Source of the DNA: Anaerolineales bacterium
GTDB taxonomy: Bacteria > Chloroflexota > Anaerolineae > Anaerolineales > Villigracilaceae
Reading direction: 5' to 3'
Assembly: GCA_036846365.1 (NCBI GenBank)
Contig: DAIUCC010000008.1
Coordinates: forward strand, 12,922 to 76,921
DNA: 64,000 nucleotides
Part shown: one piece after another, positions 35,397 through 46,177 of the stretch
How positions within the stretch are numbered: position 1 is the stretch's first letter
Layout of the letters: each line of letters begins with the position of its first letter
The notes under the pieces: generated by a model
Told to the model about the DNA's origin: nothing
Database searches by the model: none
What the model saw: only the letters and a program-made list of their open reading frames with translations
Translations under genes and position numbers: made by a program

Positions 35397-35712
35397 GTTA
35401 ACTCCATCAACTCTTTTCGAATAATCCAGATCGCCTCCCTCCTGCCGACATTAAGTGTAGGCCAAATCCAGCCGAATTTCAACTCCCTCGATGTCTCCCC
35501 ACTTAGCCGTCGAACCTATTGGGGCGGGTATTTGCGCATTTGATGGTACACGGGATAAGGGCGCTGATCTCGCATGTCCCGTTGTCGTCACTCAACATTG
35601 CACCAGCTGACGAGGTGAGGATTCCTGACTGGAGAGGGGAACCTTGTGTCATTTGTCTCCTGCGTAGGATATGGGTTTCGGAAAACGAATCGATCCGAGA
35701 ATTCTTTTTCAA

Positions 35713-36492
35713 TCAGGTGGTTGCGATCAAGTAGCGAAAGTTATTGGTTAGATAATACCCACCTGAACTTGTCTTGAAAGGCGCGATGACTCGTAAAATG
35801 AGATCCCGCACCACGTCCTCGCCTTTGGCCTGGATCGCCCGTATGGCCGGGCCCGACGACAGCAACCCGCGCAGGGCGGTCTGTTCGTCGGGATAGTTCC
35901 ACGGGCATTCGACCTTCTTCACACCCGTAGGGGTCAGCCCTGCCTTGACGGCGAGGGCCTCCAACGCCCCATCCGCCGAAAGCGCAAATGGACCGGGGGC
36001 ATCCGGTGGCGGCGGGGGCAATAATGAACCCATTGCCTTGATATAGGCCGTGGCCTCGCTTTCTTCCGGCTTCCCAAAGACAGCGATCACCACTGTTCCA
36101 GTCCGCGAAACGCGACTGGCTTCCCGCAGCGCGTGGACGGGGTTGGCGGCGAACTGAAACGAACTAAAGCCCGTGACCACGTCGAAGGTGCGGTCGTCGT
36201 AGGGCAATTCCTCCATTTCGCCCGTGCGGAAATCCCCATCACGCACACGCTCGCGGGCAAATGCCAACAACGGCTCGGACGCATCCAGCCCGCTGACCCG
36301 CGCGCCGCGTCGGGCCGCCATCTCACAAAAGATGCCCGACCCACACCCAATGTCCAACACGGATGTATTCGCGCCCACGGCGGTTTCCTGCAAAACCGCC
36401 TCGAAGAGCGGCACAGCCACGCTTTCCTGCACATCTGCCCAATCTTTGGCCCGCGCGCCCCAAATCTGTCCCTGCACGTTTGCTGTACCCAT
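35713..36492 (-). CDS. class I SAM-dependent methyltransferase
   Basis: Motif I VLDIGCGSG. Confidence 0.8.
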   Translation of the reverse strand: MGTANVQGQIWGARAKDWADVQESVAVPLFEAVLQETAVGANTSVLDIGCGSGIFCEMAARRGARVSGLDASEPLLAFARERVRDGDFRTGEMEELPYDDRTFDVVTGFSSFQFAANPVHALREASRVSRTGTVVIAVFGKPEESEATAYIKAMGSLLPPPPPDAPGPFALSADGALEALAVKAGLTPTGVKKVECPWNYPDEQTALRGLLSSGPAIRAIQAKGEDVVRDLILRVIAPFKTSSGGYYLTNNFRYLIATT

Positions 36493-36553
36493 AAAATTTC
36501 TCCTTTTAAAACCAATATTTTTGTTCCATGGCTCAATTATGATTCAAAGTCAT

Positions 36554-37147
36554 CTACAGTCGCTTTCGGCGATGCCGCAGAAACAAGATCAATCCTGGAA
36601 CGGCGAGAACAACCAGACTCAACCATAAAAAATCATATGTTCCATCGGGACCTCTTGGTTCTTGTCCAGTGAAACCTTTGACGCTGGCTACGACATCATC
36701 TTGAACATCGAACCAGGTTCGGATTTGCAAGGGTCCTGCCGAGAATGGGTCTCCATTGACAAAGAATATGGCGCGGGAACCTTCGCTAAAGGCAAAATTG
36801 GGTGCACAGACCCAAAAATATCCTGAAATCTTAACTATCTTGGGACCGCGTCCCTTCAAGTATCGCTCAACTTGCACAGTGAGGATGCTGTTCCCGTCAG
36901 AATCAGGAACCCAAGTCTTCACGGTTCCTTCAAGCACGATTTGCGCGTCCTGAATGACACCAGCAACTTGCGTTCCAACTGGGATTGGAGTGGGCGGCAC
37001 ATAACCGGGCGGGACCAGGGTCGGCTCACAAGCCAGTGCTGACCGAGGTGCGGATCCAAAGACAAGCATGAGCGCCAGAAGGATGGTACCCAAAAAACAA
37101 TACGCGATGAGGTAAGTCTTGGATCTCATAATGGATTTGGCATTCAC
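36554..37147 (-). CDS. hypothetical secreted protein with C-terminal TM anchor (island gene)
   Basis: Signal peptide, C-terminal hydrophobic stretch + RHRRKRL. Confidence 0.45.
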   Translation of the reverse strand: MNAKSIMRSKTYLIAYCFLGTILLALMLVFGSAPRSALACEPTLVPPGYVPPTPIPVGTQVAGVIQDAQIVLEGTVKTWVPDSDGNSILTVQVERYLKGRGPKIVKISGYFWVCAPNFAFSEGSRAIFFVNGDPFSAGPLQIRTWFDVQDDVVASVKGFTGQEPRGPDGTYDFLWLSLVVLAVPGLILFLRHRRKRL

Positions 37148-37209
37148 TCCGTAAGCGCAGCAAGGATGGGACGTACGTTTTGTCGGGCAACGACATATGA
37201 GTGTGCTGG

Positions 37210-37770
37210 TTATTTGCGTTGCAGCTCGTAATTAAGAACAACAATCCCGCAGTCAAAAGATGTGGATTTCACCAATACCAGATTTTGTCTGCTGTCCAGT
37301 TCTTTGAAAATTGACATTCCATTACCAATCGCAACTGGATTGATAAACAGATGAAACTCATCGATCAATCCGTGCTTGATGAGAACCGATACAAATGCCA
37401 CGCCACCATAAGCAATGATGTCTTTACCGTCTTGTTTTTTTAGTCTTGCGATTTCTTCAACCAGGTCGCCTTTTGCCAAAACAGTATGATCCCATTCTGA
37501 CTTCTCAAGCGTTTTGGTAAAAATAATTTTTTTCGTGCTATTGAATTTATCAGCGCCTTCTTGTTCTGGATGAGAAGCCCAATATGGGATAAAACCTTGA
37601 GCAAGTTTCCGCCCAAGAAGGATGCAGTCAACTGGCTCCATTATTTCTCCCACATGTTTTTTAAGATTATCGTCCCAATCTTGCGCCGTCCAATCCATTT
37701 CCCCGTTCTTTCCTGCAATGTAACCATCAACAGTCATCTGGACTTGGAGTTTTAGTTTTCTCATTATCAT
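37210..37770 (-). CDS. dihydrofolate reductase-like (RibD C-terminal domain) family protein, cassette-like
   Basis: LQVQMTVDGYIAG...ILLGRKL...AYGGVAFVSVLI pattern of RibD_C/DHFR-like family; AT-rich. Confidence 0.7.
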   Translation of the reverse strand: MIMRKLKLQVQMTVDGYIAGKNGEMDWTAQDWDDNLKKHVGEIMEPVDCILLGRKLAQGFIPYWASHPEQEGADKFNSTKKIIFTKTLEKSEWDHTVLAKGDLVEEIARLKKQDGKDIIAYGGVAFVSVLIKHGLIDEFHLFINPVAIGNGMSIFKELDSRQNLVLVKSTSFDCGIVVLNYELQRK

Positions 37771-37799
37771 TTTCCTTTTGTAAAATTATTTTACTTTTA

Positions 37800-37914
37800 A
37801 GTTATTTTTGCGAAGCCTTTTAATCTCAAAAAGGCCGAGGTTTAAAAACACTGTATATAATGGCGCCGATTGGACGTCGTCCATGACAAGCGTCCAGTGC
37901 ACGCTGTGTTGAGC
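37800..37914 (-). repeat. degenerate attC-like repeat (only R''/L'' half conserved)
   Basis: plus strand ...gtgcacgctgtgttgagc (GTTGAGC = GTTRRRY) matches conserved end of the other copies; other half diverged. Confidence 0.4.
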
Positions 37915-37942
37915 GGTTTGTCCCTACGATGATCGCGCATTC

Positions 37943-38743
37943 TCACTCTGTGCTTTTACGGGCGATTTGGTCAACGATTCCTGGTGCAATAAGTCTCAGC
38001 CAGAGCCCAAACTTACCTTGTAAAGTCATCACAACTTCTCGTTTGCGCTTTTGAACTGCTTGAATGATCTGATAAGCGCAGGTTTCCACTGGCATCGCTT
38101 CCTTTTCATGCACTGAGATTTGACCGGTTGGATCACCATCCAGTTTGAGCCCTCGGCTGCTAATCCCTGTTCTGACCCACCCTGGGTAGATCATCGTTAC
38201 ACTTACACCCGTATCTATCAATTCAACCCGTAGCGAGTCAAAGAAACCCGCCATCGCATGTTTACTTTCTCCATAGCCATCGGCAGTTGCTGACGGAAAT
38301 TTTCCGCGCAGGCTAGATATACCGACTAACCGTCCCTGTGTCCTTTTCAAATAGGGCAGTGCATAATGTGTGCAATAAACACTCCCGAAAAAGTTAACCT
38401 GTGTCACCTGCTCGAATAGAGCAAGATCTTGCATTTCGTCAAACCTTGACTCTACCCCAAAACCAGCATTGTTGATCAGCGTATCTACCCTTCCATATTC
38501 TGCAACGGTTTCTTCAATGAGGGTTTGGCATTGTGCTTTGATGCCAACATCGGTGGGGATTACGATGACTTTTCCACCCAATTGTGTACATTGCTGCGAA
38601 ACTTCTTCTAGCCGCTCAACATTTCGTGCCCCCAAAGCAAGCCAAGCTCCTTTTCTCGCCAGTTGCAATGCCAATTCCTGCCCGATTCCATAGGATGCTC
38701 CTGTAATAACCACGACATTTTCTCGAAAGGTAGTATCTTTCAC
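37943..38743 (-). CDS. SDR-family oxidoreductase (cassette 5)
   Basis: TGASYGIG, YGESK catalytic motif; GTG start with AGGAG RBS. Confidence 0.85.
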   Translation of the reverse strand: MKDTTFRENVVVITGASYGIGQELALQLARKGAWLALGARNVERLEEVSQQCTQLGGKVIVIPTDVGIKAQCQTLIEETVAEYGRVDTLINNAGFGVESRFDEMQDLALFEQVTQVNFFGSVYCTHYALPYLKRTQGRLVGISSLRGKFPSATADGYGESKHAMAGFFDSLRVELIDTGVSVTMIYPGWVRTGISSRGLKLDGDPTGQISVHEKEAMPVETCAYQIIQAVQKRKREVVMTLQGKFGLWLRLIAPGIVDQIARKSTE

Positions 38744-38763
38744 TTGTTACTCCTATTGTGGCT

Positions 38764-38893
38764 GCCTAACGGTTTGCGTTACTTGCGGGCGGGCAGGACG
38801 TGAACAGCACTCAAAAACGGAATCCTGCCGAGGCATTGAAAACTGCCTGAAATCGCACAGACTCCCACTTGTCGGCTGCACGCTGTGTTGGGC
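38764..38893 (-). repeat. attC-like recombination site (130 bp)
   Basis: plus strand GCCTAAC...GTTGGGC (RYYYAAC ... GTTRRRY), conserved GGTTTGCGTTAC and TGCTGCACGCTGTGTT boxes, internal palindromes; 5 nt after stop of epimerase gene. Confidence 0.7.
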
Positions 38894-38898
38894 CTATT

Positions 38899-39888
38899 CT
38901 AAGCTGATTTCATATACCCATTCTCTTCGAACCAATTTATAGCCTTTCTAATGGTCATCTCGATTGGTGTCTGTGGTAGGCCGAGTTCATTCACTGCCTT
39001 GGAGCAGTCATACCATTCTGTCATTTTGCCGATCCTGACTTCGCTAGCTGTTACAACAGGTGTTTTTTTTGTTATGGAAGCAGCAACTTCGAAGATGTGT
39101 CCTAGCGCAAGTGCTATATGATAAGGTAATTTGACGGCCGGTGGCTTTACGCCAGCAATATCCGCAATAAGCTTTAAATAATCTTGAACCGTGAAGTTCC
39201 TATTTCCCAAAAGATATCTTTCGCCTACTCTGCCCTTTTTTGCAGCAAGGATATGGCCACGGGCCACATCCTCGACATCGACGATATTTATTCCTCCATC
39301 AATATAGCCGGGCATTTTTTGCTTGATGACATCAATAATCATTTGTCCTGATGGCGTTGGCTTTATATCATTCGTACCGATAACAAGAGTAGGATTGACC
39401 ATTACAACTGGCAATCCCCGTGTAACAAAAATTCTTGCCTCATTTTCGGCAATATATTTGGACATGGAATAGTGATCGCCGGATTCCCAATAATTAAAAG
39501 CCTTCTCTTCATTAGCAGGCACAGAACCACTCGCAGCAATTGCATTGTTGGTGCTGGTGTAGATGACTTTCTCCACTCCAACTTCAAGAGCTGCTTGGAG
39601 GGAAGCCTTCGTACCGCCGACATTGATATCATAGAGTAATTTGGGATCCGGGGCCCAGTGAGCAAAATATGCAGCCGTGAAATAGAGTGTGTCACAACCG
39701 CTAAGAGCCCTTTTCATAGAATCGCCATCGCGAATATCTCCATATACTCTCTCAACATCGAGCTTGTCGATGTTGAGCGTATCACTGGTTTTTCTGATTA
39801 AGACCTTTACCTCTTCCCCATTTTTGATTAGTTCTCTCGTGATTGCTGAGCCTATAAATCCTGTTGAGCCAGTAACAAGTTTCTTCAT
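38899..39888 (-). CDS. NAD-dependent epimerase/dehydratase family protein (cassette 4)
   Basis: KKLVTGSTGFIGS Rossmann; YSMSKY catalytic YxxxK; GAGG RBS before ATG 39888. Confidence 0.85.
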   Translation of the reverse strand: MKKLVTGSTGFIGSAITRELIKNGEEVKVLIRKTSDTLNIDKLDVERVYGDIRDGDSMKRALSGCDTLYFTAAYFAHWAPDPKLLYDINVGGTKASLQAALEVGVEKVIYTSTNNAIAASGSVPANEEKAFNYWESGDHYSMSKYIAENEARIFVTRGLPVVMVNPTLVIGTNDIKPTPSGQMIIDVIKQKMPGYIDGGINIVDVEDVARGHILAAKKGRVGERYLLGNRNFTVQDYLKLIADIAGVKPPAVKLPYHIALALGHIFEVAASITKKTPVVTASEVRIGKMTEWYDCSKAVNELGLPQTPIEMTIRKAINWFEENGYMKSA

Positions 39889-39916
39889 TTTTTGATGCCT
39901 CACTTTATGTGTATAA

Positions 39917-40047
39917 GCCTAATGGTTTGCGTTACCTGCGCTGGGGCCGTGGACGGCGAAGCCGTCCAGCCAGAAAAATGCTGAGGCGTGGAAAAATGCT
40001 TGAAAACGGCGCAGAATCCCCGCCGTCTGCTGCACGCTGTGTTGGGC
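39917..40047 (-). repeat. attC-like recombination site (131 bp)
   Basis: GCCTAAT...GTTGGGC; internal hairpin ggacggcgaagccgtcc; near-identical left half to copy at 41908. Confidence 0.7.
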
Positions 40048-40068
40048 GGCGTTTCGTATCTAACAGGC

Positions 40069-41001
40069 TCATTGGTTCATCTTTCCTACCTTGTAGGCAA
40101 AGTAATATGGATTATTTTTCAACTCGTTTGCCTCACGTATCAACCCAACAGCATTTTCAGCGGTTGAGAATAGGCTAACAGAACCTGCGATTTTCATAAT
40201 CTCTGATGCAATTTCAGGTGGGAATAAATATGAAAACCCTGCTAATGAAAACCCGAAAACAGCACTTGTTGCCAACCAAGAACGCTTTTTTGAAAGTTGT
40301 TGAAACTTTAAATTCAATTCTCGCGTTTTTTCGTCAACCCTGACCATTAATTCTAGTAATTTATCTTCTGGTGCAATTTGGCGATTCCGAATATTCAAAT
40401 CGTTTAAAGCGTTGTGATATTCTGAAAAGATTTCTTCATCTAACGAAAGCCTTATTAAATCAGATAATGAGATATTATCTGCGTTGGGAAGGAACATCTT
40501 GAAATTAAGGTTTTTTGTCTGACTACCGCCTGACTGAAATTTCTCTGATACCGCGGCGCAGCCATAATCACTTGCGTTGAATTCATCTAAAGTGTCCACT
40601 CCTTGAGAACTTATTTGTTCATAGTGGTAAGGAATAACATAGCATAGCCCTCTTCTAATTACTTCGTGGTATTCGCTAATCCACTCAATATATTCATTTG
40701 GAATATCAACTCCATAAAAATCATCCGTTACTGTCCCATCCCCATGAATAACGAGCGAAGACGAATACAGAACCGATTTTTTCACCACATCGTTGTTTGG
40801 AAAAGCAATTGAAAGAGGTAAAGTGTTCATGTTGGCAGCAGTATTAGTAAATATATTACGCCATTCTTTCAGCGCTTCAAGGACTGCAAGATTACCCTTC
40901 CATTCATGCTTTGTAGCCTTGAACTTATTTGCAAAGTTACTATCGATTTTGTATCCAAGATTTTCTTCTAAAGAATTCAATACGGATGCATGAGATTTCA
41001 T
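40069..41001 (-). CDS. hypothetical protein, very AT-rich (cassette 3)
   Basis: 310 aa, no recognisable motif; flanked by attC-like sites. Confidence 0.5.
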   Translation of the reverse strand: MKSHASVLNSLEENLGYKIDSNFANKFKATKHEWKGNLAVLEALKEWRNIFTNTAANMNTLPLSIAFPNNDVVKKSVLYSSSLVIHGDGTVTDDFYGVDIPNEYIEWISEYHEVIRRGLCYVIPYHYEQISSQGVDTLDEFNASDYGCAAVSEKFQSGGSQTKNLNFKMFLPNADNISLSDLIRLSLDEEIFSEYHNALNDLNIRNRQIAPEDKLLELMVRVDEKTRELNLKFQQLSKKRSWLATSAVFGFSLAGFSYLFPPEIASEIMKIAGSVSLFSTAENAVGLIREANELKNNPYYFAYKVGKMNQ

Positions 41002-41028
41002 TACAAGTCTCCAAACTTCACGTAAGCC

Positions 41029-41158
41029 GCCTAACGGCTTGCGTTACTTGCAAGTGGGCGGGACGCGGCGAAGGCTCGAAAACAGAAACCTGCTGAGGCT
41101 TTGAAAACCACCAAAAAATGCGGCGACTCCTACTTGTCGGCTGCACACTGTGTTGGGC
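41029..41158 (-). repeat. attC-like recombination site (130 bp)
   Basis: GCCTAAC...GTTGGGC with same conserved boxes. Confidence 0.7.
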
Positions 41159-41189
41159 CGCTCGCTGGAGAAGTCGCGTTTCACTTGAC

Positions 41190-41873
41190 TTATACCTTTG
41201 CCATTATCTGATCATAGTATTGGACAGCCGCTTCGATATCGTCTCGACTAACATCAGGCCAGTATGCCTGGGTAACATAAACGCAGGCATCGGCACTTTG
41301 CCACAACAGAAAATTACTTAATCGCTGCTCACCACTGGTACGAAGCACCAAGTCAACATCAGGCAATCCAGTTGTCCATAAATAATGTTCAATAGTAGAC
41401 TCGGAAATTGTTTCCATCCTTGCGCTTTCTGCTAACAACTTACGCGTCACATTTACCAATTCAGCCCGCCCTCCATAATTGAAAACAAAATTGAAGATTT
41501 CAGGGCCATTATGTTGGGTTAGAGCGACTGCATCATCCAGGGCTTGTAATGCTTTTGGCGTAAGTTCATCTCTTCGACCGCAATGCACAAAGCGAACACC
41601 ACTTTGATGTAATTTGCTTACAAACTCAGGCAAATGTTTTTCCAGAGAACTCATGATATAGCCTACCTCAGCTTTAGGCCGATTCCAATTCTCTGTGGAC
41701 CAGGCATAAGCCGATACGATTTGAATACCAAGCGCATGGCAAATCTCTAATACATGGGGAATATGTTCAAATCCGGCTTTGTGTCCGGCACTTCTTGAGA
41801 GACCCCGTTGTTGTGCCCAACGTCCGTTGCCATCCATAATCAGCCCAATATGTCTCGGTATGATCATAAGCAT
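41190..41873 (-). CDS. cis-prenyltransferase (undecaprenyl-diphosphate synthase family) (cassette 2)
   Basis: IPRHIGLIMDGNGRWA and RTSGEQRLSNFLLWQ signatures of UppS family; low GC unlike a core uppS. Confidence 0.85.
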   Translation of the reverse strand: MLMIIPRHIGLIMDGNGRWAQQRGLSRSAGHKAGFEHIPHVLEICHALGIQIVSAYAWSTENWNRPKAEVGYIMSSLEKHLPEFVSKLHQSGVRFVHCGRRDELTPKALQALDDAVALTQHNGPEIFNFVFNYGGRAELVNVTRKLLAESARMETISESTIEHYLWTTGLPDVDLVLRTSGEQRLSNFLLWQSADACVYVTQAYWPDVSRDDIEAAVQYYDQIMAKV

Positions 41874-41907
41874 CCACTTTCAAACTAGATCGGTTAGTTA
41901 TCTAGCG

Positions 41908-42014
41908 GCCCAACGGTTTGCGTTACCTGCGCTGGGGCTGGGACGGCGAAGCCGTCCAACCAGAAAAAGGCTCAGGCGTAGAATCCAACCCGTCAAGTGC
42001 ACGCTTTGTTGGGC
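41908..42014 (-). repeat. attC-like recombination site (107 bp, shorter variant)
   Basis: GCCCAAC...GTTGGGC; shares left half with copy at 39917. Confidence 0.65.
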
Positions 42015-42103
42015 ACACTTTGGGTATGCAAGACTCACGCCGGGAAAAGGATTATGAAACAATTTGTAATAACTTATGCTGTTGCTATAAGTGTCTATCT
42101 GCA

Positions 42104-42640
42104 TCACAATTTTTCTTTCAAAACGAACTTTCTGTAACTTAGTAATTTTTGAATATCGTCAGGATGAGGAAGAATTTTCCACTTTTCAGTAAGGGCATAT
42201 GCTTGCGGCTCTGCTGTTTCTTCAACAAATTTCTTCTCCTTATCAATTCCTAACTCAAACCCAATGCGGGGGTGGTTGTAATAGACATGAGAAAATTCGT
42301 GAGCCAAAATATGTATTTTTGTTTTATGTTCAATGAAATTAGAAAAAGGATTGAAAATTACAAAACAACGTAAGTTAATTTTATTAAGTAAGGCACATGC
42401 AGGTGTATCGAATTGCCATAAGTCATTAACTTGTTTACACAGAATAAAATCAAGATTTTCGAGAATTTTATCTCGGCTATCTTTGGGAATACTATCCCAG
42501 GTTTCTACAAATAAATCTTCGTAAACCCTTTTTCGTTCGGCTGAATCATCATTGGAAAAATACAGTAAATTATTCATGACAGGTAAGTACAATTTTCTGA
42601 TCTCCATAATAACCATGCCTACAGCCCTTATTGAATGCAT
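42104..42640 (-). CDS. HExxH-motif protein, putative ImmA/IrrE-like metallopeptidase (cassette 1), very AT-rich
   Basis: HEFSHVYYNH; start codon overlaps a core-site-like GTTAGAT (minus strand GTTAG|ATG). Confidence 0.55.
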   Translation of the reverse strand: MHSIRAVGMVIMEIRKLYLPVMNNLLYFSNDDSAERKRVYEDLFVETWDSIPKDSRDKILENLDFILCKQVNDLWQFDTPACALLNKINLRCFVIFNPFSNFIEHKTKIHILAHEFSHVYYNHPRIGFELGIDKEKKFVEETAEPQAYALTEKWKILPHPDDIQKLLSYRKFVLKEKL

Positions 42641-42649
42641 CTAACTATG

Positions 42650-42679
42650 GTGTTATACAGCAATTCTGCTGTATAACAC
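42650..42679. promoter_or_regulatory. perfect 12-bp inverted repeat with 6-nt spacer, candidate operator
   Basis: GTGTTATACAGC-aattct-GCTGTATAACAC, between candidate promoter and first cassette ATG. Confidence 0.4.
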
Positions 42680-42696
42680 CCTTTATCTTTCAAAAA

Positions 42697-42704
42697 TTAT
42701 ACAT
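42697..42704 (-). promoter_or_regulatory. extended -10 promoter element reading into cassette array
   Basis: minus strand TGTATAAT. Confidence 0.35.
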
Positions 42705-42724
42705 CCGATTCCCAGGCGAATTTC

Positions 42725-43321
42725 TCACGGCCGATATGGCTCCTCGCGCACGAGATGACCATAGATGATCTTGAGGAACAGGGCGGGGATCAGCCACTCG
42801 AATCCCCAGACGGGCGGCAGCACATACAGATTCAGCAGGATGGCAATCAGGATGATGCCCAAGGCGGTGGGACGCTGCAAATAGAGCGGCATTTGTAGCA
42901 ACATCCACGCGGAGAACAGCAGGGCCAGGTACCAGAACAGGCCATAGGTCCAGTTGCCGCCGAAGAGCAGGGCCGCCAGCAGCGGGTGGACGTGAAAAGC
43001 CGTGAAGGCTAGATGATTCTTCGCCAGCCGCGTTAGGCCTGTCTCTTCGGGCTGGAGCGGGGCATGGTAGAAACGTTTGCAACTGTTGAGCGCGTTCGCC
43101 GCCACGCCGCCAAACACATCCAACGCCATCAGCCCCGCCACAAGATACTGCCAGATCGTCCACGGGATGGACTTGGTCCACACTACCCAGGCCAGGATGC
43201 CCGTGGCGAACAGGCCCACGGTCCACACCAGGGTGCGCTCGGCGGTCGTCGCGCCCGTGCCGAAGAATTCGTCGGGCTTGCCTGAGTAGTTCCAATCGAT
43301 CACAACGCGGTCGGGTTTCAT
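42725..43321 (-). CDS. polytopic membrane protein, hypothetical (GC-rich flank)
   Basis: 198 aa, ~5 TM segments. Confidence 0.55.
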   Translation of the reverse strand: MKPDRVVIDWNYSGKPDEFFGTGATTAERTLVWTVGLFATGILAWVVWTKSIPWTIWQYLVAGLMALDVFGGVAANALNSCKRFYHAPLQPEETGLTRLAKNHLAFTAFHVHPLLAALLFGGNWTYGLFWYLALLFSAWMLLQMPLYLQRPTALGIILIAILLNLYVLPPVWGFEWLIPALFLKIIYGHLVREEPYRP

Positions 43322-43471
43322 GGGATTCTCCTATTGCAATCATACAACAGTTTGATATACTCGCCCAAACCTTTCCCCGTCCATCGTCAACCAAAACGCA
43401 GAGGCTTTATCTTCTCCATCCGCCTGCCTTTGTGCCCATTGTGTCCTTTGTGTTAAAGTCTGGATACCCCC

Positions 43472-46177
43472 ATGGACCTCTCCCATAACATCCACCTGCT
43501 GGGCGACCTGCTCGGCAAAGTCATCTCGGAGCTCGAGTCGCCGGAGTTATTCGAGACCGAGGAACGCATCCGCACGCTGGCCAAGGCGCGGCGGAACGGG
43601 GATTCGGTCGCGGCGGAACAGTTGCAGGCGGAGGTTTCCTCGCTGCAAAATGAAGATGCGCGCGTGGTGGCGGCCGCCTTCACCGCCTACTTCGACCTGG
43701 TCAACCTGGCCGAGGAGCAGCAGCGTGTGCGGCTGCTCCGTCAGCGGGAGGACGCCTTTTTCCCCGAGCCCATCCGCGAGTCGATTGGCGAAACGGTGGC
43801 GACCCTCAAAGAAAACGGAATCAGCCCCGAGCGGATGTCGGCCCTGCTGGAGAATCTGTCCATCGAACTGGTGCTGACCGCTCATCCCACCGAGGCGCGC
43901 CGCCGCACGGTCCTCTCCAAGACCGAGCACATCGCCTCACTGCTGCGCCAACTCAACAGCGACGCTCTCTCGCAGCGCGAACGCCAGGAGACGGTCTCCG
44001 CCCTGCGCGCCGCCATCTCCGCCCTGTGGCTGACCGACCGCTCGCGCTCCGACAAGTTGACCGTGGCCGACGAGGTGCGCACGGGCCTGTATTTCGTCGA
44101 CTCGTTCTTCTGGAACATCCTGCCCATCCTATACCGCGACCTGGAAGCCGCGCTCGAAAAATATTACCCCGGGGTGAAACCTCCCGAGAACTGGCTGCGC
44201 CTGGCCTCGTGGATCGGCGGCGACCGCGACGGGAATCCCTTCGTCACCACCCCTGTCACCGCCGAGGCGCTGCGTCTGCATCGCGGCCTGGCGGTGGAGA
44301 ATCACCGCCGCGCCTTTCAAGAGTTGGGACGCCGCCTGAGCGTGAGCGCCAGCCGCATCCCGCCGCCGCCCGCCCTGCTGGCATGGATCGAGGCGCGCAG
44401 GCCCTTCCCTCCGCACGTGGCCTACATCGAGCAGCGTTACGCCAATGAACCCTATCGTCTGGTGTTGGCCCTGCTGGCTAACGACCTGGCCGAAGCCTCG
44501 CGCGACGACATGGCCAGGCACCTGCTCGGGCAATACCCGCACCAGGCTTTGATCGATGCACAACGGCTGCTCGAACCGCTGCTGCTGATCGCCTCGGCCA
44601 TGCCGCCCAGCCTCGCGCAGGACGAACTCAAGACCGTGCTCCGCAAAATGCGCGTCTTCGGCCTGCACGTCGCACGGCTTGACATCCGCGAGGACTCGGG
44701 ACGGTTGAATGCCGCCCTGGGTGAAATTCTGCGCGCCTTGAAGATCGAAGCAGATTTCGAGAATCTGCCCGACGAGACCCGCGCCTCATTGTTGATCCGT
44801 CTGCTGGCGAATCCCGCCCCGAGCCTGTCCAGCCACCCGGGCGTGACGGCCGCCGCCGCCGAGACCTGGTCGCTATTCCAGTTGATCGCGCGCGTGCAGG
44901 ACATCTACGGCGACGAGCTGCTCGGCCCGATCGTCATCTCGATGACCCATGCCGCCGCCGACGTACTGACCGTCATGCTGCTGTCCAAGTGGGCGGGCTG
45001 TCGGCGCATGCCCGCCATTGCGCCACTCTTCGAGTCGATCCAGGACCTGCAAGACGCCTCCAAGATTCTGACCCTGCTGTTCGAGTCGTACCTGTACCGC
45101 GCCCACCTGGCCACGCACGGCGACGAGCAGATGGTCATGATCGGCTACTCCGACAGCAACAAGGACGGCGGCTACCTGATGGCGAACTGGTCGCTCTATC
45201 AGGCGCAGGAGGACATCACCCGCACCGCGCACGAATATGGCATCAAGCTGACCATCTTCCACGGACGCGGCGGCACCATCGCGCGCGGCGGTGGACCCGC
45301 CAACCAGGCCATCCGCGCCCAGCCCGCGGGCAGTGTCAACGGCCGTTTCCGCGTCACCGAGCAGGGCGAGATCATCGCCTCGCGCTACGCCGACCCCGGC
45401 CTGGCGCATCGTCACCTCGAACAGATTGCCAGCGCGGTCATCCTGGCTTCCGCGCCGCACAATGAGGACCCCGTCCCCGCGAAGTGGCGAGAGGTGCTGC
45501 AAGCCATGTCCGAAATCGGGCTGCACACGTATCGCTCGCTGGTGTACGAGACTCCGGGCTTCATCCAATTCTGGGAATCGGCCACCCCGCTGGACGAGAT
45601 CAAGCGGTTGCAGATCGGCTCGCGGCCCGTCTCGCGCGCCAAGGCGGGCGCCGTGAATCAGATCCGCGCCATCCCGTGGGTCTTCTCGTGGATGCAAAGC
45701 CGCTTCAACCTGCCGGGCTGGTACAGCCTCGGCTCAGGCCTCGACTGCGCGCACAACGACCTGCCCATGCTGCAGGAGATGTACGACGGCTGGCCGTTCT
45801 TCAAGGCTCTGCTGGATAACACCGAAATGTCGCTGCTCAAGGCCGACATGGACATCTCCGCCCTGTACGTGAGCCTGGTCCGCAATCAAAAACTCGCGGA
45901 CGGAATCTTCGGCTCCATCCGTGCCGAATACGAACGCACCCGCGATTGCGTGTTGAGCATCACCCGCCATTCCGTCCTGCTCGAAACGGAACCCGTTACC
46001 CGTCAGGCGATCCAGCTCCGCAACCCTTACGTCGACCCGTTGAACTACATCCAGGTCGAGACCCTGCGCCGCCTGCGCAACCTGTCCGACCCTGACGGCG
46101 CGGAGGCCAAGCCCCTGCGCGAGATCATGGCACTGACCATCAACGGCATCGCCGCGGGTTTGAGGAATACGGGATAA
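43472..46177 (+). CDS. ppc: phosphoenolpyruvate carboxylase
   Basis: VLTAHPTE, GYSDSNKDGG, FHGRGGTIARGGGP signatures; 901 aa. Confidence 0.95.
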   Translation: MDLSHNIHLLGDLLGKVISELESPELFETEERIRTLAKARRNGDSVAAEQLQAEVSSLQNEDARVVAAAFTAYFDLVNLAEEQQRVRLLRQREDAFFPEPIRESIGETVATLKENGISPERMSALLENLSIELVLTAHPTEARRRTVLSKTEHIASLLRQLNSDALSQRERQETVSALRAAISALWLTDRSRSDKLTVADEVRTGLYFVDSFFWNILPILYRDLEAALEKYYPGVKPPENWLRLASWIGGDRDGNPFVTTPVTAEALRLHRGLAVENHRRAFQELGRRLSVSASRIPPPPALLAWIEARRPFPPHVAYIEQRYANEPYRLVLALLANDLAEASRDDMARHLLGQYPHQALIDAQRLLEPLLLIASAMPPSLAQDELKTVLRKMRVFGLHVARLDIREDSGRLNAALGEILRALKIEADFENLPDETRASLLIRLLANPAPSLSSHPGVTAAAAETWSLFQLIARVQDIYGDELLGPIVISMTHAAADVLTVMLLSKWAGCRRMPAIAPLFESIQDLQDASKILTLLFESYLYRAHLATHGDEQMVMIGYSDSNKDGGYLMANWSLYQAQEDITRTAHEYGIKLTIFHGRGGTIARGGGPANQAIRAQPAGSVNGRFRVTEQGEIIASRYADPGLAHRHLEQIASAVILASAPHNEDPVPAKWREVLQAMSEIGLHTYRSLVYETPGFIQFWESATPLDEIKRLQIGSRPVSRAKAGAVNQIRAIPWVFSWMQSRFNLPGWYSLGSGLDCAHNDLPMLQEMYDGWPFFKALLDNTEMSLLKADMDISALYVSLVRNQKLADGIFGSIRAEYERTRDCVLSITRHSVLLETEPVTRQAIQLRNPYVDPLNYIQVETLRRLRNLSDPDGAEAKPLREIMALTINGIAAGLRNTG

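What the first reader, a model, noticed from the sequence alone, without database searches (positions are those of the whole stretch)
37210..42640. Cassette cargo: UppS-like cis-prenyltransferase, NAD-epimerase, SDR, DHFR-like reductase, HExxH protein and an unknown 310-aa protein
The cassettes carry, in array order, an HExxH (ImmA/IrrE-like) protein, a complete UppS-family cis-prenyltransferase (IMDGNGRWA / RxSGExRxSxFLxWQ motifs) that is clearly not in a core cell-wall context, a 310-aa protein with no recognisable motif, an NAD-dependent sugar epimerase/dehydratase, an SDR and a RibD_C/DHFR-like reductase. An accessory prenyltransferase plus two redox/epimerase enzymes delivered as independent cassettes is unusual cargo. 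Integron cassettes are more often toxin-antitoxin, resistance or unknown genes. Individual start codons and RBSs (AGGAG/GAGG) are preserved, suggesting the genes are functional rather than decayed.
Basis: partly seen in the sequence, partly recalled or inferred. Interest (0 to 1): 0.6.

Follow-up and report, generated by a model that had tools for sequence, protein, structure and literature searches.

The report
Integrase-less integron cassette array, Chloroflexota
A foreign, low-GC 5.5-kb block in a Chloroflexota genome is a real integron cassette array that kept its attI site but has no integrase nearby, and it carries six intact genes, at least four of them independently mobile, including an unusual UppS-type prenyltransferase without the RXG tail; this is a known kind of element with moderately unusual cargo.

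Summary
The six ORFs are real, intact and all on the minus strand. Four full 107-131-nt attC sites and one truncated attC separate them. These sites belong to a large attC family of Anaerolineales/Chloroflexota genomes, with compensatory base-pair changes and a strong sense-strand ORF bias. The same family lies next to IntI1-like integrases in 8-10 other genomes.

The window has no intI in 64 kb. It does keep the family's attI palindrome, a conserved TATAAT box and the GTT crossover just upstream of the first cassette.

A close relative has an empty site. Four cassettes (HExxH, UppS, 310-aa, HpnA-like) occur elsewhere with other neighbours, and for three of them DNA homology to the window stops at or near the cassette boundaries. 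dN/dS is about 0.1. GC3 is 0.30-0.42 against 0.70-0.86 in host genes.

- The "epimerase" passes the HpnA model, but no hopanoid context was seen.
- The UppS belongs to a 224-230-aa clade lacking the C-terminal RXG motif.
- The HExxH protein is a small zincin fold, closer to M48 than to ImmA/IrrE.
- The RibD_C gene has no attC of its own.

Verdict: a new member of a known kind (CALIN, an attC cluster without a nearby integrase). The cargo functions are inferred only.

The parts
42649..42738 (-). attI-like platform remnant. It holds a TATAAT box (42701-42696) pointing at the cassettes, a perfect 14-bp palindrome TATACAGC..GCTGTATA (42680-42649), and is followed by the crossover GTTAGAT (42645-42639).
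   Evidence: It aligns with the intI-to-first-cassette spacers of complete integrons of the same attC family (L010, L031, L124, L025, L105). The palindrome occurs once in the window, with 0 expected by chance. Among 184 loci it is found only in copies of this locus and upstream of arrays in L010, L031 and L036. It is absent from the empty site of relative L182.
41914..42644 (-). Cassette 1: HExxH small zincin-like protein (ORF 42616/42640-42104) plus attC1 (42014-41908, 107 nt).
41035..41913 (-). Cassette 2: UppS-clade cis-prenyltransferase without the RXG motif (ORF 41873-41190) plus attC2 (41158-41029).
   Evidence: Family assignment. C-terminal comparison. The same cassette lies in L017/L125 (87% aa) and, as a solitary copy, in L126/L127 (83% aa).
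39923..41034 (-). Cassette 3: orphan 310-aa protein (ORF 41001-40069) plus attC3 (40047-39917). The R' of attC3 is mutated to ATTAGGC.
   Evidence: No family hit. Nine close homologues. About 100 remote homologues share residues 165-308. It occurs in other arrays, L136-138, and near CBASS (an anti-phage signalling system) in L131.
38770..39922 (-). Cassette 4: HpnA-family extended SDR (ORF 39903-38899) plus attC4 (38893-38764).
   Evidence: TIGR03466 scores 380.7 bits against a cut-off of 367.65. In L142, homology to the window spans 39931-38766; in L168, L177 and L171 it is cut by a contig end on one side and stops at the cassette boundary on the other, with different flanks beyond.
37790..38769 (-). 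Cassette 5: classical SDR (ORF 38743-37943) plus a truncated attC5. The 5' half is about 37916-37800, with no L'/R'.
   Evidence: NF004825 scores 337 bits against a cut-off of 215. Alignment A1 shows the loss of the 3' half. The covariance model finds only fragments of 10.2 and 7.8 bits.
37210..37789 (-). Terminal gene: YyaP-like RibD_C/DHFR-fold reductase (ORF 37770-37210) with no attC of its own.
   Evidence: PF01872 scores 92.5 bits. The closest solved structure is 2gd9, YyaP. RibD_C proteins are bona fide cassettes in the same attC family: L091 at 51% id, plus L022, L033, L044 and L119.

Best explanation
The region is the cassette array of a chromosomal integron of a Chloroflexota (Anaerolineales-type) host that has no integrase gene nearby. 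IntegronFinder would call it a CALIN, an attC cluster without a nearby integrase.

Shown:
- About 5.5 kb of low-GC DNA starts directly after the stop codon of a host membrane-protein gene.
- It opens with the family's attI palindrome and a conserved TATAAT box.
- It then carries five attC-delimited cassettes and a sixth gene whose attC sites are degraded.

Inferred mechanism: each cassette was captured as a circular ORF-attC unit. An IntI recombined the folded bottom strand of its attC with attI at the G|TT position. Transcription would run from the attI-proximal promoter through the co-oriented, individually RBS-equipped ORFs.

The array now looks partly frozen. There is no intI in 64 kb, attC3 has a mutated crossover G, attC5 is truncated and the last gene has no attC. 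An IntI encoded elsewhere in the genome could still act on attC1, attC2 and attC4.

Cargo, with functions inferred from family membership only:
1. A small stand-alone zincin (HExxH plus a downstream Glu) of unknown substrate.
2. A cis-prenyltransferase from a Chloroflexota-centred paralogue clade. It keeps every N-terminal catalytic motif but lacks the RXG tail. It most likely acts as an accessory or variant polyprenyl-diphosphate synthase.
3. An orphan protein with a variable N-domain and a widely shared helical, weakly hydrophobic C-module. It is a candidate single-gene stress or defence cassette.
4. An HpnA-family NAD(P) extended SDR.
5. A classical SDR.
6. A YyaP-like DHFR-fold reductase.

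The genes are independent acquisitions, not an operon.
For: attC identity:
- Four sites run from R'' GCCCAAC to R' GTTRGGC and are 107-131 nt long.
- A pattern taken from them finds more than 118 loci, nearly all Chloroflexota MAGs. Of 165 sites, 151 are 129-131 nt long.
- RNAalifold on 44 sites gives 22 pairs. Six have compensatory changes, and there are R and L boxes with a bulged base.
- A covariance model finds about 400 sites in those loci and no further complete site in the window.
- 243 attC-bounded cassettes have a median length of 791 bp. The longest ORF is on the sense strand in 234 of 243, and they fall into 232 clusters at 50% identity.

Integrase link: IntI1-like genes lie within 8 kb of these attCs. 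Eight loci show 46-51% identity over about 320 aa, and two more carry partial matches (37-43% identity over about 180-230 aa).

attI: the window segment 42738-42649 aligns with the intI-proximal spacers of those integrons.

Insertion: relative L182 (86-91% nt identity in the flanks) has 228 nt where the window has 42725-35489.

Independent mobility:
- The UppS cassette sits in three contexts with the same left junction, GTTGGGCnGCTAGAT.
- Homology to other loci for the HpnA, 310-aa and HExxH cassettes ends at or near cassette boundaries.

Functionality: the ORFs are intact, dN/dS is 0.08-0.15, and the cofactor and catalytic motifs are present.

Foreignness: GC3 is 0.30-0.42 against 0.70-0.86 in host genes.
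Against: - No intI or intI pseudogene was found in the 64-kb window, so current mobility is unproven.
- The sigma-70 scan does not call a promoter at the TATAAT box, because the -35 is weak. Chloroflexota promoters are poorly known, and there are no expression data.
- The window's attI-like site has only one of the two palindromes seen in L010 and L031.
- The window attCs were part of the covariance model's seed, so their scores are circular.
- The RibD_C gene lacks attC sites, so its cassette status rests on composition, position and cassette-borne relatives.
- The cargo functions are family-level inference. The structure model of the 310-aa protein failed (pLDDT 33).
Confidence: 0.88

Rival explanations
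1. The six genes are one horizontally acquired operon for an isoprenoid or glycolipid pathway: UppS makes a polyprenyl carrier, and HpnA, the SDR and the reductase modify a sugar or lipid. On this view the intergenic repeats are REP-like or terminator elements, not recombination sites.
For: All six genes are co-oriented and share low GC. UppS and an HpnA-family enzyme both have lipid or isoprenoid-related annotations.
Against: - Each gene is found elsewhere without the others, and homology ends at or near the repeats.
- The repeats show attC architecture with compensatory changes and sit next to intI in other genomes.
- HpnA homologues on long contigs lie in unrelated, non-hopanoid contexts.
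- 243 cassettes of the family form 232 unrelated protein clusters.
Confidence: 0.04
2. The array is part of a still active integron whose intI lies outside the 64-kb window, split off by rearrangement or acting in trans. The cassettes would then be currently mobile rather than a frozen remnant.
For: Half of the CALINs in Cury et al. 2016 lie in replicons that encode an IntI (PMC4889954). attC1, attC2 and attC4 look intact and score 84-110 bits. The cassettes are compositionally unameliorated, which suggests recent arrival.
Against: - In complete integrons of the family, intI sits directly next to attI. Here a host gene's stop codon lies 25 nt from the TATAAT box.
- attC3 R', attC5 and the last gene show decay.
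- Five independent metagenome assemblies show the same cassette order.
Confidence: 0.3
3. The cassettes are silent baggage. They are intact only because they arrived recently, are not expressed and give the host no benefit.
For: No promoter was called. The GC3 gap shows no amelioration. Distal cassettes in long arrays are often poorly expressed (general integron knowledge).
Against: - dN/dS of about 0.1 across lineages shows the proteins are maintained where they circulate.
- A conserved TATAAT box and per-gene RBSs are retained.
- The array is identical in several samples.
Confidence: 0.25

Closest known systems
CALIN elements (clusters of attC sites lacking an integron integrase; Cury et al. 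2016, PMC4889954)
   Same: It has at least two co-oriented attC sites less than 4 kb apart, no intI nearby, about five cassettes, cassettes unlike those of clinical integrons and no resistance genes.
   Different: It keeps an attI-like site and the platform's TATAAT box. That points to loss of intI from a once complete integron rather than secondary-site insertion.
Sedentary chromosomal integrons with homogeneous long attC sites (Vibrio VCR arrays, Xanthomonas integrons)
   Same: The attC family is long (about 130 nt), highly homogeneous and lineage-specific. The arrays are chromosomal. The cargo is mostly ORFan, toxin-antitoxin or defence-like.
   Different: The host phylum is Chloroflexota (Anaerolineales). 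The array here is short, has no integrase nearby and is much lower in GC than its host.
Accessory housekeeping-enzyme cassettes: integron-borne peptide deformylases (PMC12690207) and sul4 derived from a Chloroflexi folP (PMC5732528)
   Same: A paralogue of an essential enzyme family (UppS), nearest to chromosomal Chloroflexota genes (70% id, L129), has been packaged as a mobile cassette.
   Different: No inhibitor-resistance phenotype is known or tested for UppS cassettes. This clade also lacks the RXG motif, so it may not be a simple replacement for the target enzyme.
RXG-less cis-prenyltransferases: archaeal heteromeric catalytic subunits (MaUPPS-A; bioRxiv 10.1101/139675) and M. mazei MM_0014 (PMC8131916)
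   Same: It has a cis-PT fold with intact Asp/Arg catalytic motifs but no C-terminal RXG.
   Different: Its sequence is nearest to bacterial UPPS (42-50% id to solved UPPS/DPPS). No NgBR-like partner is encoded in the cassette, and no TLGG-type tail is present.
Bacteriophage-resistance integron cassettes (BRiCs; bioRxiv 10.1101/2024.07.02.601719)
   Same: The 310-aa and HExxH genes are single-gene cassettes of unknown function. Their homologues also occur outside integrons beside CBASS systems (anti-phage signalling systems) and on mobile elements.
   Different: There is no PADLOC hit, no phenotype, and only one defence-island context for each.

Membership tests
Integron cassette array / CALIN | Two or more attC sites, co-oriented and less than 4 kb apart | tested here: met
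   Four complete sites at 42014-41908, 41158-41029, 40047-39917 and 38893-38764, spaced 856-1154 bp apart, plus one truncated site.
Integron cassette array / CALIN | attC architecture: R''/R' and L''/L' inverted boxes, an imperfect hairpin with bulged bases, a GTTRRRY R' and a variable loop | tested here: met
   The consensus structure of 44 family members has 22 pairs, 6 of them with compensatory changes, and a bulged base between the L-box pairs. R' is GTTRGGC in three of the four window sites. attC3 has ATTAGGC.
Integron cassette array / CALIN | No integron integrase nearby | tested here: met
   tblastn with IntI1 gives no hit better than E=0.15 in 64 kb. The same probe gives full-length matches of 293-327 bits in eight other loci.
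Integron cassette array / CALIN | Cassettes are discrete mobile units, found in different arrays | tested here: met
   The UppS, HpnA, 310-aa and HExxH cassettes are each found with different neighbours. This was not tested for the SDR cassette.
Complete integron | intI gene adjacent to attI and divergent from the cassettes | tested here: not met
   The stop codon of a host membrane-protein gene lies 25 nt upstream of the TATAAT box.
Complete integron | attI recombination site at the head of the array | tested here: met
   The site matches the attI regions of family integrons by sequence similarity, though only one of two palindromes is present. Recombination activity is not testable here.
Complete integron | Pc promoter driving the cassettes | tested here: inconclusive
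   A TATAAT box conserved in position across family platforms points at the cassettes, but the sigma-70 scan calls no promoter there.
UppS / homodimeric cis-prenyltransferase (TIGR00055, PF01255) | Profile score above the curated cut-off | tested here: met
   TIGR00055 scores 227.4 bits against a cut-off of 109.55. PF01255 scores 235 bits against 27.
UppS / homodimeric cis-prenyltransferase (TIGR00055, PF01255) | Catalytic and substrate-binding motifs: DGNGRW, (S/T)xENWxRP and RxxGExRxSxFLLWQ | tested here: met
   All are invariant in alignment A6, including against E. coli UPPS.
UppS / homodimeric cis-prenyltransferase (TIGR00055, PF01255) | C-terminal RXG motif, which binds IPP and Mg2+. EcUPPS G244A is non-functional (bioRxiv 10.1101/139675). 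| tested here: not met
   The protein ends at ...YYDQIMAKV, about five residues before the RRFGG of canonical enzymes. The whole 224-230-aa clade ends the same way, whereas the 246-258-aa Chloroflexota UppS proteins have RRFG.
UppS / homodimeric cis-prenyltransferase (TIGR00055, PF01255) | Undecaprenyl-diphosphate synthase activity and product chain length | not testable with these tools
   This needs an enzyme assay or complementation.
HpnA, hopanoid-associated sugar epimerase (TIGR03466) | Profile score above the curated cut-off | tested here: met
   380.7 bits against a cut-off of 367.65, covering the full model length 1-327. The GxxGxxG and YxxxK motifs are present.
HpnA, hopanoid-associated sugar epimerase (TIGR03466) | Genomic association with hopanoid biosynthesis genes (shc, hpnB-H) | tested here: not met
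   Here it is a lone cassette. Homologues at 80-84% identity on 100-260-kb contigs sit beside MFS, carboxyltransferase, DHDPS, LuxR, Mur ligase, ICMT and AAC(3) genes.
ImmA/IrrE metallopeptidase (Peptidase_M78, PF06114) | Profile match | tested here: not met
ImmA/IrrE metallopeptidase (Peptidase_M78, PF06114) | Adjacent Xre-type HTH partner gene | tested here: not met
   The cassette holds a single ORF. The neighbours are a membrane-protein gene and the UppS cassette.
Zincin metallopeptidase fold (HExxH on an active-site helix after a beta-sheet) | HExxH motif conserved, and a fold similar to known zincins | tested here: met
RibD_C / DHFR-fold reductase (PF01872) | Profile score above the cut-off | tested here: met
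   92.5 bits against a cut-off of 24.1, over the full length. The nearest solved structure is B. subtilis YyaP, 2gd9. The riboflavin-specific NCBIfam models score far below their cut-offs.
Classical SDR (PF00106; NF004825) | Profile score above the cut-off, plus TGxxxGxG, NNAG and YxxxK motifs | tested here: met
   NF004825 scores 337 bits against a cut-off of 215. The motifs ITGASYGIG, NNAG and YGESK can be read in the translation.

The most novel reading that the evidence does not exclude
The RXG-less UppS clade may be a functionally distinct cis-prenyltransferase. It could be insensitive to natural inhibitors of lipid-carrier synthesis, or it could make or transfer a different prenyl product. 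On this reading, Chloroflexota integrons spread it as an adaptive cassette, much as they spread accessory PDF and sul4. The orphan 310-aa and HExxH cassettes would be new single-gene anti-phage or anti-defence modules. More broadly, Anaerolineales would hold a large and barely described reservoir of sedentary integrons built on one family of roughly 130-nt attC sites.
Probability: 0.2. Interest if true: 0.6.

Novelty: new member of a known kind. Interest (0 to 1): 0.38.

Why it matters
It documents a cassette array in an abundant but rarely cultured wastewater and groundwater phylum. Every level of evidence is present in one locus: attC covariation, a retained attI, an empty site in a relative, and cassette-limited homology.

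It shows that Anaerolineales carry a large, homogeneous attC family with extremely diverse cargo. It also flags three testable items.
- A mobile paralogue of an essential cell-envelope enzyme lacks a motif thought indispensable.
- An HpnA-type enzyme is decoupled from hopanoid genes.
- Two ORFan families co-occur elsewhere with CBASS (an anti-phage signalling system).

None of this changes how integrons are understood.

Tried and rejected
- **intI in the window.** tblastn found nothing. The weak hit at 17505-17386 lies in a TetR regulator.
- **PADLOC and PHROGs on all six proteins.** Nothing useful came back. PADLOC on 52 remote homologues of the 310-aa protein also found nothing.
- **AlphaFold2 of the 310-aa protein.** With 9 homologues the model failed (pLDDT 33), so no fold search was possible.
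- **Profile searches against PDB sequences.** Both the 310-aa and the HExxH families gave no hits.
- **Foldseek of the HExxH model against PDB and BFVD.** No significant match. The afdb50 library was unavailable.
- **A heteromeric partner for the short UppS.** I tested whether the 254-aa ORF overlapping the short UppS in L129 is an NgBR-like partner. hhalign gave probability 0.5%, and it looks like a nucleotidyltransferase. Rejected.
- **A hopanoid cluster around HpnA homologues.** Not seen in the three long-contig loci examined.
- **The hairpin at 42649-42680 as the terminator of the upstream gene.** Rejected. It is absent downstream of the orthologous gene in L182, and it matches attI palindromes.
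- **The array on a known plasmid.** No match.
- **sigma-70 promoter scan.** Uninformative at the TATAAT box.

Full report
**1. What is at the coordinates**

Six ORFs lie head to tail on the minus strand between 42640 and 37210. The block has GC 0.39-0.48 in a window that otherwise has 0.55-0.66. GC3 of the six genes is 0.30-0.42. The flanking host genes (PEP carboxylase, a membrane protein and a methyltransferase) have 0.70-0.86.

- UppS: PF01255 scores 235 bits, and TIGR00055 scores 227 against a cut-off of 109.55.
- An NAD-dependent epimerase/3-beta-HSD type protein.
- A classical SDR: NF004825 scores 337 against a cut-off of 215.
- A RibD_C protein: PF01872 scores 92.5.

The HExxH protein and the 310-aa protein hit nothing in Pfam, NCBIfam, PADLOC or PHROGs. 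Ribosome-binding-site-like sequences precede each start.

**2. The intergenic repeats are attC sites**

Read on the gene strand, each spacer runs from GCCCAAC-ACAGCGTGCA to GTAACGCAAACC-GTTAGGC, which is R''-L'' to L'-R'.

A pattern built from the two ends found more than 118 stretches in the species-representative genome collection. Nearly all are Chloroflexota/Anaerolineales MAGs, including Candidatus Villigracilis, with up to six sites per 8 kb. Of 165 pattern matches, 151 are 129-131 nt long.

An alignment of 44 diverse members, taken as the bottom strand, folds into a 22-pair hairpin with R and L boxes and a bulged base. Six pairs show compensatory double changes in 9-23 sequences each.

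A covariance model built from that alignment finds about 400 sites in the fetched loci. In the window it finds only the four complete sites plus two fragments of the fifth. The window sites were in the model's seed, so their scores are not independent. The independent support is the family itself.

Between consecutive sites, 243 cassettes have a median length of 791 bp. The longest ORF lies on the sense strand in 234 of 243. The proteins fall into 232 clusters at 50% identity. This is the signature of integron cassettes.

**3. Link to an integrase and to attI**

In eight of the attC-bearing loci it finds full-length homologues (46-51% identity over about 320 residues), and in two more it finds partial ones. 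All are divergent from the cassettes.

The spacers between those intI genes and their first cassette share three features: a TATAAT box, one or two palindromes built on TATACAGC/GCTGTATA, and the sequence ATAGTTGGGC.

The window carries the same arrangement directly upstream of the first cassette: TATAAT at 42701-42696, a perfect 14-bp palindrome at 42680-42649, then ATAGTTAGAT. The palindrome occurs once in the window, with none expected by chance. Among 184 loci it occurs only in copies of this locus and ahead of arrays in L010, L031 and L036.

The stop codon of a host membrane-protein gene lies 25 nt upstream of the TATAAT box. So the array keeps the integron platform's attI and probable promoter but has no intI beside it. 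By IntegronFinder's definitions it is a CALIN, an attC cluster without a nearby integrase (PMC4889954). Integrons in Chloroflexi were already noted there.

**4. It is an insertion, and the cassettes move one at a time**

A related Chloroflexi MAG (GCA_016191845.1, L182) matches the window flanks at 86-91% nucleotide identity. It has 228 nt where the window has 42725-35489. A second relative (L184) has yet another arrangement, so the interval is a variable hotspot.

- **UppS cassette.** It recurs at 87% amino-acid identity in a different array, between tkt and rnc, in L017/L125. It recurs at 83% as a solitary cassette with a truncated attC, between a YbaK-like gene and malQ, in L126/L127. The left junction is the same in each case: GTTGGGC-nGCTAGAT.
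- **HpnA-type cassette.** In L142, nucleotide homology to the window spans 39931-38766, essentially the cassette. In L168, L177 and L171 it stops at a cassette boundary on the side not cut by a contig end, with unrelated flanks beyond.
- **310-aa and HExxH cassettes.** They behave likewise in L136-138 and L139-141.

Pairwise dN/dS is 0.08-0.15 for the UppS, 310-aa, HExxH and RibD_C genes. Neither is met.

**5. Signs of decay**

attC5, after the SDR gene, keeps only its 5' half. The RibD_C gene has no attC of its own. attC3 is the only one of 44 aligned sites whose crossover G is changed, giving ATTAGGC. Five metagenome assemblies show the same cassette order. I infer that the array is partly immobilised. 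An IntI encoded elsewhere in the genome cannot be excluded.

**6. The cargo, corrected**

(a) **HExxH protein.** It has 14 homologues with invariant H-x3-HExxH-x2-Y-x-HP and two Cys.
- AlphaFold2 gives a confident model with pLDDT 82.7. A beta-sheet precedes the HExxH helix.
- Weak Pfam hits across the family favour M48 and DUF2201_N (7 of 14 each) over M78 (3 of 14).
- It is a small zincin, not demonstrably ImmA/IrrE.
- One homologue sits beside a type II CBASS (an anti-phage signalling system) on a ParA/SSB element.

(b) **UppS.** All N-terminal catalytic motifs are present, but the protein ends five residues before the RRFGG of canonical enzymes. A whole clade of 224-230-aa proteins, mostly from Chloroflexota, ends the same way.
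- That clade includes a chromosomal member inside a moa operon (L129, 70% identity).
- Canonical 246-249-aa UppS with RXG exist in Anaerolineales and Ardenticatena. I could not show both types in one genome.
- The RXG glycine is reported as essential in E. coli UPPS. RXG-less cis-PTs are either subunits that need a partner or atypical enzymes (bioRxiv 10.1101/139675; PMC8131916).
- The overlapping 254-aa ORF in L129 is not a cis-PT-like partner.

(c) **The 310-aa protein.** It has nine close homologues. An exhaustive profile search adds about 100 remote ones. These share only residues 165-308, a helical module with one weakly hydrophobic segment at 242-260. Two of them touch DUF6236. One homologue lies in an island with CBASS, a resolvase and an HNH gene. 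The structure model failed.

(d) **The 'epimerase'.** It passes the HpnA model (380.7 against 367.65). Neither this cassette nor its 80-84% homologues on long contigs sit with hopanoid genes.

(e) **The SDR.** It is a PRK06181-type classical SDR.

(f) **The RibD_C protein.** It is closest to B. subtilis YyaP. RibD_C proteins recur as cassettes in this attC family.

**7. How unusual is the cargo?**

A Pfam census of 150 cassettes from the same attC family shows a few members each of PIN, PemK, AAA kinases, DinB, Mrr, NUDIX, many DUFs and RibD_C. Prenyltransferase and epimerase are not among the top 25 families.

So the enzymes here are uncommon in this family, but cassette pools are known to be very diverse. 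Published precedents exist for accessory housekeeping enzymes as cassettes. Integron peptide deformylases confer actinonin resistance (PMC12690207). sul4 was derived from a Chloroflexi folP (PMC5732528). Unknown-function cassettes have also proved to be phage defence systems (bioRxiv 10.1101/2024.07.02.601719). I found no paper describing a UppS cassette, nor one describing integron arrays or attC families in Anaerolineae; the only hit for those terms is a sul4 host study.

**8. Verdict**

This is a genuine integron cassette array with no integrase nearby (a CALIN with retained attI) in a Chloroflexota chromosome. It carries intact cargo, of which at least four cassettes are independently mobile. 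It is a new member of a known kind. The mechanism of capture and expression is inferred from integron biology, and the cargo functions are family-level inferences. The most interesting open points are the RXG-less mobile UppS and the two ORFan families.

Noticed in passing
window 35489-43472; L182, L184: The interval between PEP carboxylase and the acetyltransferase/proC genes differs in every close relative. L182 has TetR, a 357-aa SDR, the membrane protein and the 122-aa gene. L184 has only the methyltransferase. The window has the membrane protein, the array, a 197-aa secreted protein, the methyltransferase and the 122-aa gene. It is a local recombination or insertion hotspot.
   Followed up: partly
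window 36554-37147 (-): The 197-aa signal-peptide-like protein just after the array has intermediate GC3 (0.49), no family hit, and is absent from both relatives. It may be a further cassette that has lost its attC.
   Followed up: no
L017, L029, L038, L055, L059, L069, L077: The same roughly 130-nt attC family occurs in MAGs labelled Nitrospirae, Verrucomicrobiota, Candidatus Nitrosotenuis (an archaeon), Gammaproteobacteria, Bdellovibrionales, Saccharibacteria and Syntrophales. Most are on short contigs. This reflects either binning contamination by Chloroflexota cassette arrays or real cross-phylum spread.
   Followed up: no
L126:5930-6760 and L127: A solitary UppS cassette is fixed between a YbaK-like gene and malQ. 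Its attC is cut after GCCCAACACAGCGTT, and a short attC-like 3' end (..CATCGTTGGGC) lies upstream. This looks like a domesticated single cassette.
   Followed up: partly
L129:5240-6690: A chromosomal member of the short RXG-less UppS clade overlaps the stop of a 254-aa nucleotidyltransferase-like ORF. It sits inside a moaA...moaC-moaD-moaE-moeA operon, an odd context for a lipid-carrier synthase.
   Followed up: partly
L131:1558-3800 and L134:6690-11746: A homologue of the 310-aa protein lies next to a Cap15/CD-NTase CBASS (an anti-phage signalling system), and a homologue of the HExxH protein lies next to a SAVED/CD-NTase/Cap2/Cap3 CBASS. There is only one such context for each.
   Followed up: partly
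L139:2200-3250 (also L140, L141): The HExxH cassette is again the first cassette of a different array, after thiolase, Rce1-like and ChsH2 genes. Its upstream region has TATAATTTTT followed by GGTTGGGT but no palindrome.
   Followed up: no
L036:1435-1456: The attI-type palindrome lies about 800 nt before the first attC of an array in a 4.9-Mb Anaerolineales contig, yet the IntI1 probe finds no intI in the locus. This may be another delta-intI array.
   Followed up: no
window 39917-39923: The R' of attC3 reads ATTAGGC. It is the only one of 44 aligned family sites with the crossover G (C on the bottom strand) changed. That should block recombination at the junction between the 310-aa and HpnA cassettes.
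   Followed up: partly
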